Source: Candidatus Parcubacteria bacterium (GTDB lineage Bacteria > Patescibacteriota > Minisyncoccia > UBA6257 > 2-01-FULL-56-20). Taken from it: 56,958 nt of DNA. A model generated the notes under the pieces. That model was not told where the DNA came from, did no database searches, and worked only from the letters and a program-made list of their open reading frames with translations. The stretch lies in the NCBI GenBank assembly GCA_027355945.1, contig DAIEHA010000006.1:1-56958 (forward strand), written 5' to 3'. Positions 45,579 through 46,260 of this stretch are shown piece by piece (the first letter of the stretch is position 1; every line of letters begins with the position of its first letter). Both the position numbers and the translations under genes were made by a program.

Positions 45579-45665
45579 CTTCTTCTTTCCTCCTCGGTGG
45601 GATATGAACCGTTTACAATAATACGAAACCGTGCCGGCAAGTCAATGGATTTTCCTCCCAAAATG

Positions 45666-45674
45666 TGATATAAT
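45666..45674 (+). promoter_or_regulatory. Extended -10 promoter of rnpB
   Basis: TGaTATAAT, 6 nt before the P1 helix. Confidence 0.7.
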
Positions 45675-45680
45675 ACTGTT

Positions 45681-46143
45681 GTGGGGCGGAACGGACGATC
45701 GCTCTCCGATTTGTATCGTGCGGCGCATGTCGCTGCGCGACGGGACGGGGAGAGGAAAATCCGGACACCCTCTTCGCTCCGGTGCCGCATTCGTGCGGAA
45801 CCGGAATCCGCTACGGCGGAACGCGCTACCGGCGCGGCGGAGACAAAAAGGTACCCGGCGAAACGCCGGGCGTCCGCAAGGATAGAGGTGCGAGCAGTGA
45901 CGTTCCGAGGCGAAAGCCGAGGAAGGACCCCATCCCGACGTAGAAGGTCCAATTCCGCTATAGGGATGATAAGGCGGAAGTGAAACGGCAAAATCCTTAC
46001 CGGGTGCAAGGTCGTGCCTCATCGATCCTTAACGGATCGATGAGGAGTGCCGCAAGAACCCGCGAGCAATCAAGGGTCCAGATGAATGATCGTCCCCGCG
46101 CGTCCGCGCGCGGCGACAGAATCCGGTTTATAGTCCGCCCTGC
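45681..46143 (+). ncRNA. rnpB: RNase P RNA (about 460 nt, expanded)
   Basis: GAGGAAAATCCGGAC (P4 5' strand), GTGAAACGG, AGATGAATGATCG, ACAGAATCCGGTTTA (P4 3' strand); P1 GGGCGGA/TCCGCCC; P2 GGACGATC/GATCGTCC. Confidence 0.93.
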
Positions 46144-46260
46144 AGTCGAAAACCCGCTCGAAATGGCGGGTTTTCGGCACCGACGTCCTTGAGAGAGATA
46201 TCTTTCCCGATAAAAATCCCGCGTGAAGCGGGATTTTCATACAACGGCATATGTCGAGTA

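What the first reader, a model, noticed from the sequence alone, without database searches (positions are those of the whole stretch)
45771..45849. RNase P RNA carries a ~79-nt multi-hairpin insertion between P5 and P7
Seen: helices can be assigned as P5 CACCC/GGGTG, P7 GGTA/TACC, P8 CCCGGC/GCCGGG and P9 TCC-GCAA-GGA. Between the P5 and P7 5' strands lies a domain closed by TCTTCGC/GCGGAGA and holding three hairpins (TCCGGT..GCCGCA-TTCG-TGCGG..ACCGGA; CCGC-TACG-GCGG; CGCGC-TACC-GGCGCG). The loops of the putative P13 (CATCCC) and P14 (GGGATG) are also complementary. Established: type A RNAs have only the short P6 strand here and type B RNAs have a single P5.1 hairpin. Inference: an atypical architecture; the extra domain might stabilise the RNA or compensate for a missing or divergent RnpA.
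Basis: partly seen in the sequence, partly recalled or inferred. Interest (0 to 1): 0.58.

Follow-up and report, generated by a model that had tools for sequence, protein, structure and literature searches.

The report
RNase P RNA with branched arm
The tRNA-trimming ribozyme (RNase P RNA) of this ultra-small Parcubacteria (CPR) bacterium carries a real three-hairpin arm that is an overgrown form of a hairpin most of its relatives have at the same spot, a spot the papers I could search assign only to Bacillus-type RNase P; it is most likely an outer structural strut, not a stand-in for a lost protein.

Summary
Window 45682-46146 (+) is a 465-nt RNase P RNA. It scores 79.6 bits against RF00010, below Rfam's cut-off of 100, so routine annotation misses it. 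Positions 45771-45843 fold into a four-way junction of a 7-bp closing stem and three GC-rich hairpins, followed by an A-rich linker (45844-45849). Infernal's placement of the insert inside P8 is an alignment artefact.

The domain is not a free-standing novelty. About 95% of 121 Parcubacteria-type RNase P RNAs, and roughly 40% of a phylum-wide Patescibacteria sample, have a hairpin at this position. Its length ranges from 0 to about 130 nt. The branched form occurs only in this genome and one sister species.

These RNAs lack the type A P6/P16/P17 pseudoknot and do not match the type B model. They are a type-A-like core with a P5.1-like arm.

The missing-RnpA idea fails. rnpA is absent together with its neighbours dnaA, rpmH and yidC, which points to an assembly gap.

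Earlier reports of this scan described CPR RNase P RNAs swollen by mobile hairpins on other DNA. No second copy of this domain exists here.

This is a new variant of a known kind, of moderate interest.

The parts
45682..46146 (+). RNase P RNA gene (rnpB), 465 nt, type-A-like core
   Evidence: RF00010 79.6 bits, E 3.5e-24, full model 1-367. A 100-pair model is 94.8% paired over 21 relatives, with 60 pairs showing double changes and 0/500 shuffles reaching this.
45766..45770 (+). P5 5' strand (pairs with 46002-46006)
   Evidence: C-G to U-A double change in 9 of 21 relatives; 95% of cells paired.
45771..45777 (+). 5' strand of the closing stem of the P5.1-like domain (pairs with 45837-45843)
   Evidence: RNAalifold predicts this helix unaided in 15 genus RNAs, with 5 of 7 pairs showing double changes. 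6 of 7 pairs show double changes.
45778..45805 (+). Hairpin A of the domain: 11 bp with one G.A mismatch and a UUCG loop
   Evidence: MFE fold. All pairs are kept in G004 and the mismatch is swapped to A.G.
45807..45820 (+). Hairpin B: 5 bp with a UACG loop
   Evidence: MFE fold. U-A to C-G compensatory change in G004.
45822..45836 (+). Hairpin C: 5-6 bp with a 3-5 nt loop
   Evidence: MFE fold. Two wobble-type changes in G004 keep the pairing.
45837..45843 (+). 3' strand of the closing stem of the domain
   Evidence: As for 45771-45777.
45844..45849 (+). A-rich single-stranded linker J5.1/7, conserved as an A-rich strand in relatives
   Evidence: Alignments.
45850..45853 (+). P7 5' strand (pairs with 45998-46001)
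   Evidence: 100% paired in 21 relatives, with 3 of 4 pairs showing double changes.
45854..45883 (+). P8 (45854-45870) and P9 (45872-45883, GNRA loop)
   Evidence: Covariation.
45903..45979 (+). Three hairpins of the specificity domain: P12 (45903-45924), hairpin 2 (45925-45950) and hairpin 3 (45953-45979). Loops pair 45933-45936 with 45963-45966, extended here to 45931-45936 with 45963-45968.
   Evidence: Stems 100% and 99% paired with double changes. Loop-loop core paired in 28 of 28, with a C-G to U-A switch in 3.
46010..46051 (+). P15 plus one continuous 12-bp hairpin with a 5-nt loop in place of P16/P17. There is no strand that could form P6 and no GGU in the L15 internal loop.
   Evidence: Sequence and folds. 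Covariation of P15 and of the base of the hairpin.
46058..46113 (+). P18 (46058-46077), P2 3' strand (46088-46095) and a P19 hairpin (46096-46113)
   Evidence: helices 19, 2 and 20 all show double changes.
45757..45764 (+). P4 5' strand with a bulged U (pseudoknot with 46123-46129)
   Evidence: 100% paired. G-C to A-U switch in 7 of 21 relatives.
45664..45674 (+). Possible extended -10 promoter element about 8 nt upstream of the RNA (inferred)
   Evidence: Read from the sequence. The consensus scan did not flag it because there is no -35 match.
46149..46177 (+). GC-rich hairpin followed by a run of four T, a possible terminator (inferred)
   Evidence: Read from the sequence. Not flagged because the T run is shorter than its rule requires.

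Best explanation
Positions 45771-45843 are a lineage-specific, branched enlargement of a P5.1-like peripheral hairpin. This hairpin starts directly after the P5 5' strand and is followed by an A-rich linker to P7. It is a standing feature of Parcubacteria-type RNase P RNAs. In this genome and one sister species, its tip has grown into a four-way junction with three short GC-rich hairpins capped by very stable loops, possibly by local duplication of a hairpin. These RNAs have lost the P6 pseudoknot and P16/P17, which brace the catalytic domain in type A RNAs. The base of the arm and its A-rich linker therefore most likely act as an outer structural strut of the catalytic domain, in the way P5.1 does in type B (inferred). 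The branched tip probably adds only folding stability, or is a nearly neutral expansion segment (inferred). Shown: the fold, its position, its conservation as a hairpin, its size plasticity, and the absence of P6. Inferred: the architectural role and the near-neutrality of the tip.
For: Fold and significance. Pair-preserving changes in G004. Register of P5 and P7. A hairpin sits at the same site in about 110 of 119 Parcubacteria-type RNAs. Its primary sequence is not conserved, yet the folds are much more stable than shuffles (median z -3.0). RNAalifold finds the closing helix unaided, with double changes in 5 of 7 pairs. Size runs from 0 nt (G013 and L070, otherwise normal RNAs; G013 has rnpA) to about 130 nt. 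The branched form occurs in only 2 of 23 genus genomes and in none of 400 other genomes of the order. There is no P6 partner, because P15/16 is a plain hairpin. PMC5066622 names P6 as the hallmark of the type A catalytic domain and the L5.1-L15.1 contact as a key strut of type B. Phylum-level sequences that lack the hairpin carry the canonical type A J5/7 strand instead.
Against: G013 and L070 have neither the hairpin nor P6, so the arm is not indispensable. No docking partner was identified. G000 has no P15.1-like hairpin. All three loops of its domain are of UNCG type or similar, whereas about half of its congeners have GNRA loops that could dock. Only one comparator sequence exists for the branched part, so its covariation statistics are weak (237 of 500 shuffles reach the observed values). 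No expression or probing data exist.
Confidence: 0.7

Rival explanations
1. The branched domain is a specific functional module. It would be a docking platform for another part of the RNA, analogous to L5.1-L15.1 in type B, or a binding site for a protein. On this reading it was gained in the G000/G004 lineage for a purpose.
For: All nine substitutions between G000 and G004 preserve the fold, including an isosteric swap of the purine-purine mismatch. This suggests purifying selection on structure. Five congeners have a hairpin at the P15.1 position, so a B-like strut pair can arise in this genus.
Against: G000 itself has no P15.1-like hairpin. The loops of the domain are UNCG-like tetraloops, which are not typical docking loops. 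The nearest relative with a complete sequence, G002, manages with a single hairpin. There is no correlated change elsewhere in the RNA.
Confidence: 0.15
2. The domain consists of one or more inserted mobile hairpin elements (REP- or MITE-like). Earlier reports of this scan described such elements inside other CPR RNase P RNAs.
For: Earlier scan notes on other genomes. The site is a solvent-exposed hairpin tip whose size varies widely among relatives.
Against: blastn-short of the domain and of each hairpin against the whole G000 assembly finds no second copy; the best hit is 18 nt with E 0.15. There is no homologue in 401 genomes of the order or 23 of the genus other than the orthologous site in G004. 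The one 44-nt hit, in G012, lies inside a protein-coding frame. There are no terminal repeats or target duplications.
Confidence: 0.06
3. The extra domain compensates for a lost or divergent RnpA protein.
For: PF00825 is not found in G000 or G004, the only two genomes with the branched domain.
Against: In G000, dnaA, rpmH and yidC are missing as well. In G004, rpmH and yidC are missing as well. All four flank rnpA in G002 and are essential genes. G000 is 92% complete and G004 75%. rnpA is present in 34 of 41 relatives irrespective of hairpin size.
Confidence: 0.03
4. The segment is a mis-registered standard helix, for example an insertion inside P8 as in the Infernal alignment, or the region is not an RNase P RNA at all.
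For: cmscan aligns P7 to part of hairpin A and puts an 82-nt insert in the P8 loop.
Against: P7 as the four bases directly 5' of P8 is 100% paired, with double changes in 3 of 4 pairs. P8 and P9 follow immediately, as in every relative. G013, which lacks the arm, fixes the register. The RF00010 E-value is 3.5e-24 over the full model.
Confidence: 0.02

Closest known systems
P5.1 of bacterial type B RNase P RNA (Bacillus subtilis, Geobacillus stearothermophilus; Rfam RF00011)
   Same: It is a hairpin inserted between the 5' strands of P5 and P7, in an RNA that lacks P6/P16/P17. In type B it is an architectural strut of the catalytic domain (PMC5066622).
   Different: RF00011 gives no match at E <= 10. 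G000 has no P15.1 partner, P15.2 or P10.1. The rest of the RNA (P18, P8/P9, P4 region) is type-A-like. Here the arm is branched rather than a single hairpin. Origin is probably convergent, because about 60% of a Patescibacteria sample keep the canonical type A strand.
Bacterial type A RNase P RNA (E. coli M1 RNA; Rfam RF00010)
   Same: This is the best-matching family (79.6 bits, full-length). P1-P5, P7-P12, P15, P18 and the conserved P4 sequences are present and covary.
   Different: The score is below the gathering score of 100. The P6 pseudoknot and P16/P17 are absent. There is no GGU in L15. Extra P5.1-like and P19 elements are present.
Diverged RNase P RNAs of CPR bacteria (Lui, Nielsen and Arkin 2021, PMC8172020)
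   Same: That paper reports that CPR RNase P RNAs fall below Rfam thresholds, have long helix extensions, often lack P13, P14, P16 and P17, and lack the CCA-binding motif in two thirds of cases. All of this applies here.
   Different: The paper does not mention a hairpin between P5 and P7 (0 occurrences of 'P5.1') or a branched domain there.
Type C RNase P RNA (Thermomicrobium, Sphaerobacter; PMC7191817, PMC2858038)
   Same: It is a mosaic of type A and type B features that arose by convergence.
   Different: According to those papers, type C keeps P6/P16/P17 and has P10.1 and P15.1 but no P5.1. That is the opposite combination.
Mobile palindromic hairpins inside CPR RNase P RNA genes
   Same: They are extra hairpins at outward-facing helices of a CPR RNase P RNA.
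   Different: No second copy of this domain or its hairpins exists in the genome or in relatives.

Membership tests
Bacterial RNase P RNA, type A (RF00010) | Covariance-model score at or above the curated gathering score (100 bits) | tested here: not met
   79.6 bits, E 3.5e-24, full-length match. 13 of 41 relatives exceed the cut-off.
Bacterial RNase P RNA, type A (RF00010) | Universal catalytic core: P1-P4 with the P4 pseudoknot and bulged U, P5, P7-P11, P15, and the conserved J18/2 and P4 sequences | tested here: met
   alignment. In one search all these helices are 78-100% paired in 21 relatives with double changes, and P4 shows a G-C to A-U switch in 7.
Bacterial RNase P RNA, type A (RF00010) | P6 pseudoknot with P16/P17, the hallmark of the type A catalytic domain (PMC5066622) | tested here: not met
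   46017-46045 is one uninterrupted 12-bp hairpin with a 5-nt loop. The J5.1/7 strand is A-rich and has no complement there.
Bacterial RNase P RNA, type A (RF00010) | P13 and P14 placed 3' of the GUGAAA (CR-III) element | tested here: not met
   Both extra hairpins (45925-45979) precede the GUGAAAC element at 45980. The RF00010 consensus places P13 and P14 after it.
Bacterial RNase P RNA, type B (RF00011) | Match to the type B covariance model | tested here: not met
   No match at E <= 10 in the whole genome. The control detects B. subtilis and L. lactis.
Bacterial RNase P RNA, type B (RF00011) | P5.1 hairpin between P5 and P7 | tested here: met
   Met by position only. Homology with type B P5.1 was not shown.
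Bacterial RNase P RNA, type B (RF00011) | P15.1 hairpin and the L5.1-L15.1 contact; P10.1 | tested here: not met
   G000 has no hairpin between the P15 3' strand and P18 (46052-46057) and none between P10 and P11. Five congeners do have a hairpin at the P15.1 position. The tertiary contact itself cannot be tested with these tools.
Dispersed mobile hairpin (REP/MITE-like) insertion | Several related copies at unrelated loci in the genome or in relatives | tested here: not met
   The single G012 hit is a chance match inside a coding frame.
RnpA-less RNase P | Absence of rnpA while its conserved neighbours rpmH and yidC are present | tested here: not met
   rnpA, rpmH, yidC and dnaA are all unfound in G000. 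rpmH and yidC are also unfound in G004. This is an assembly gap.

The most novel reading that the evidence does not exclude
Parcubacteria-type RNase P RNAs, and those of some Elusimicrobia, form a distinct and so far uncatalogued architectural class. The class has a type-A-like core with a P5.1-like arm but usually no P15.1 partner. It has no P6/P16/P17. Three hairpins sit between CR-II and a contiguous, type-B-like CR-III, and two of them are joined by a conserved loop-loop pairing. This would be a third independent route, after types B and C, to bracing the ribozyme. The branched four-way-junction arm of this genome would be its most elaborate known form.
Probability: 0.4. Interest if true: 0.6.

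Novelty: new variant of a known kind. Interest (0 to 1): 0.45.

Why it matters
RNase P RNA is a textbook case of how an ancient ribozyme keeps one catalytic core while swapping its peripheral braces. Types A, B and C have served as the bacterial catalogue for 25 years. A huge, uncultured part of the bacterial tree routinely places a hairpin at the type B P5.1 position of an otherwise type-A-like RNA that has lost P6. This gives another natural experiment in convergent RNA architecture. It also gives a set of natural size variants, from 0 to about 130 nt and from single to branched, for testing what such struts contribute. Practically, these RNAs fall below the Rfam threshold and Infernal mis-registers the insert. 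A dedicated covariance model would therefore improve the annotation and completeness checks of CPR genomes.

Tried and rejected
1. I scanned the JGI metagenome contigs with a 20-nt P8/P9 pattern to find more species with the branched domain. All 18 hits were chance matches in GC-rich coding DNA and none was an RNase P RNA. That scan is spent.

2. G010 looked like a third member of the G000/G004/G002 subgroup, but its rnpB 5' half is replaced by a scaffold gap of N.

3. I did not build a covariance model of the P4-to-P9 region. The MAFFT seed alignment A1 put the variable hairpin out of register, and no group of sequences shares one geometry. I used RNAalifold on genus sequences and a projected full-length model instead.

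4. Mobile-element origin was rejected.

5. RnpA loss was rejected.

6. The type B model gave no hit.

7. Loop C of the domain has the same four bases as the P7 3' strand and could compete for P7. This is not conserved in G004 and was dismissed as coincidence.

8. Two literature searches for RNase P RNA together with Patescibacteria or Parcubacteria found nothing beyond PMC8172020. The RNase P Database itself could not be consulted.

9. The promoter/terminator scan did not flag the promoter-like and terminator-like elements that I read by eye.

Full report
**What is there.** Rfam finds nothing in the window at curated thresholds. With E-value thresholds, window 45682-46146 (+) matches bacterial RNase P class A (RF00010) over the full model. 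The score is 79.6 bits and the E-value 3.5e-24, against a gathering score of 100. It is the only such locus in the 735-kb, 27-contig, 92%-complete genome. A scan of genome contigs with a conserved motif of this RNA returned records named Wolfe-, Lipton-, Jorgensen-, Kaiser-, Nomura- and Moranbacteria and similar. The organism is therefore a Parcubacteria/Paceibacteria-type CPR bacterium.

**The observation.**
- A 7-bp closing stem pairs 45771-45777 with 45837-45843.
- It holds three hairpins at 45778-45805, 45807-45820 and 45822-45836, with 0-1 nt between helices.
- A six-base A-rich tail follows.
- The MFE is -45.4 kcal/mol, against -29.5 +/- 2.8 for dinucleotide shuffles (z -5.67, 0 of 200).

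The same domain exists in one other species of the genus, G004, at 89% identity. Of the nine differences, six fall in five base pairs and all preserve pairing. One is a U-A to C-G double change and four are wobble-type changes. Two more differences swap the single G.A mismatch of hairpin A to A.G, and one lies in the linker. With only two sequences the shuffle statistic is uninformative. Sliding the partners drops pairing from 100% to 50% or less.

**Register.** cmscan placed P7 inside hairpin A and called the rest an 82-nt insert in the P8 loop.
- In 28 RNAs of the order, the four bases directly 5' of P8 covary with the four bases after the conserved CR-III-like element. The pairs seen include GGUA/UACC, AGUA/UACU, CGUA/UACG, UGUA/UACA and CAUA/UAUG.
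- The P5 strands covary C-G to U-A.
- I projected a full 100-pair model from G000 (P1-P5, the closing stem of the arm, P7-P12, two further hairpins, P15, P16 base, P18, P19, the P4 pseudoknot and a loop-loop pairing) onto a MAFFT alignment of 21 relatives. It is 94.8% paired, and 60 pairs show double changes. None of 500 shuffles reaches this, and slid controls give 45% or less.

**What the domain is.** It is not a new insertion. It is the largest and only three-hairpin version of a hairpin that nearly all relatives carry at this place.
- In the 38 order-level RNAs, the sequence after P5 forms one hairpin followed by an A-rich linker and then P7-P8-P9.
- RNAalifold on 15 genus sequences predicts the closing helix unaided, with double changes in five of seven pairs in 4-9 sequences each.
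- In 121 Parcubacteria-type RNAs, the distance from P4 to CR-II is 73-292 nt, typically about 90. G000 and G004, at 149, are among the ten longest.
- About 110 of 119 linkers fold with at least 4 bp. Several of the nine failures are cutting errors of my script. The median z is -3.0 against shuffles, although the sequences are not alignable.
- Only a handful of linkers are branched or tandem.
- The arm can vanish. G013 and L070 have a six-base linker in an otherwise normal RNA, and G013 has rnpA.
- In a phylum-wide sample, roughly 40% of RNAs have a hairpin here: 22-24 of 57 by eye and 17 of 38 classifiable by script. The others carry the canonical type A strand that holds the 5' half of P6.

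**Architecture.** The arm occupies the position of P5.1. The papers I could read assign P5.1 to type B only (PMC7191817, PMC2858038). PMC5066622 names the P6 pseudoknot as the hallmark of the type A catalytic domain and the L5.1-L15.1 contact as that of type B.
- Here P15 is followed by a single uninterrupted 12-bp hairpin (46017-46045), and nothing can pair with the A-rich linker. P6/P16/P17 are therefore absent.
- The type B model finds nothing at E <= 10.
- G000 has no hairpin at the P15.1 position, although five congeners do.
- In the specificity domain, three hairpins lie between CR-II and a contiguous CR-III-like element. The RF00010 consensus has P13 and P14 after that element.
- The loops of the second and third hairpins pair.

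**RnpA.** PF00825 is not found in G000, but neither are dnaA, yidC or rpmH. In G002 these lie together as dnaA, rpmH, rnpA, yidC and a jag-like gene. The other genus genomes without an rnpA hit (G004, G015, G020) also lack yidC and rpmH. The origin-proximal cluster is therefore unassembled, not lost. 34 of 41 relatives have rnpA over the cut-off regardless of arm size.

**Mobile-element test.** Earlier reports of this scan describe CPR RNase P RNAs enlarged by mobile palindromic hairpins on other DNA. The look-ups returned nothing on a P5.1-like arm. I tested the mobile-hairpin idea here.
- No second copy of the domain, of any of its hairpins, of the P3 extension or of P19 exists in the assembly.
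- None exists in 401 genomes of the order or 23 of the genus, apart from the orthologous site in G004.
- The one 44-nt hit, in G012, is inside a coding frame.
- Hairpin B resembles the inner part of hairpin A, with the same stem core and the same seven bases at the 3' end. Local duplication is therefore a plausible origin (inference).

**Mechanism.** The fold, the site, the conservation as a hairpin, the plasticity and the loss of P6 are shown. The rest is inferred. The base of the arm with its A-rich linker probably serves as a peripheral brace of the catalytic domain in place of P6/P16/P17, as P5.1 does in type B. The branched tip, capped by UNCG-type loops that stabilise rather than dock, is probably a near-neutral or merely stabilising expansion. 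The complete absence of the arm in G013 shows that it is not essential.

**Literature.** The only paper I found on CPR RNase P RNA is Lui et al. 2021 (PMC8172020). It reports sub-threshold scores, extended or missing helices (P13, P14, P16, P17) and a missing CCA-binding motif. It does not mention a P5.1-like element. Further searches found nothing. The RNase P Database could not be consulted, so prior cataloguing cannot be excluded.

**Verdict.** This is a new variant of a known kind: RNase P RNA with a convergent, type-B-like arm, here in an unusually branched form. Interest is moderate.

Noticed in passing
window 45925-45950 (hairpin 2 loop; alignment A3 columns 28-31): All 28 relatives hold a self-complementary tetramer at the same loop position: AGCU in 18, ACGU in 7 and CGCG in 3. 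In some it extends to 8-nt palindromes. I found no partner in cis. It could be a homodimer kissing site or a mini-stem with a tetraloop. It remains unexplained.
   Followed up: partly
window 45931-45936 with 45963-45968: There is a loop-loop pairing between the two hairpins that follow P12. Its 4-bp core is conserved in 28 of 28 relatives, with a C-G to U-A switch in three lineages. It is extended to 6 bp in this genome.
   Followed up: yes
window 46013-46016 and 46046-46048 (L15 internal loop); whole genome G000: The L15 loop has no GGU or UGG motif for the tRNA 3'-CCA. At most 8 of the 46 tRNA genes found by ARAGORN show CCA at their 3' end. This fits the report in PMC8172020 that most CPR RNase P RNAs lack the motif.
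   Followed up: partly
relatives G003, G014, G016, G020, G021 (alignment A5 columns 419-444): Five species of the genus have an extra hairpin, mostly with a GNRA loop, between the P15 3' strand and P18. This is the position of type B P15.1. G000 lacks it.
   Followed up: no
loci L120, L125, L139, L144: RNase P RNAs in records named Elusimicrobia or Endomicrobia share the CR-III-like motif and the hairpin between P5 and P7. The architecture is therefore not confined to CPR bacteria.
   Followed up: no
G000 whole assembly; G004, G015, G020: The dnaA-rpmH-rnpA-yidC origin cluster is missing from four of 23 assemblies of this genus. This may be a recurrent binning or assembly blind spot.
   Followed up: partly
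L188 408-512 (G010 contig 6): The rnpB gene of G010 is interrupted by a scaffold gap of about 100 N that removes its 5' half. This is why it scored only 49 bits.
   Followed up: yes
window 45903-45924 (P12): P12 contains a tandem G.A/A.G mismatch between two Watson-Crick segments and is capped by a GAAA loop. Four congeners have an extra hairpin inserted in P12 (columns 229-250).
   Followed up: no
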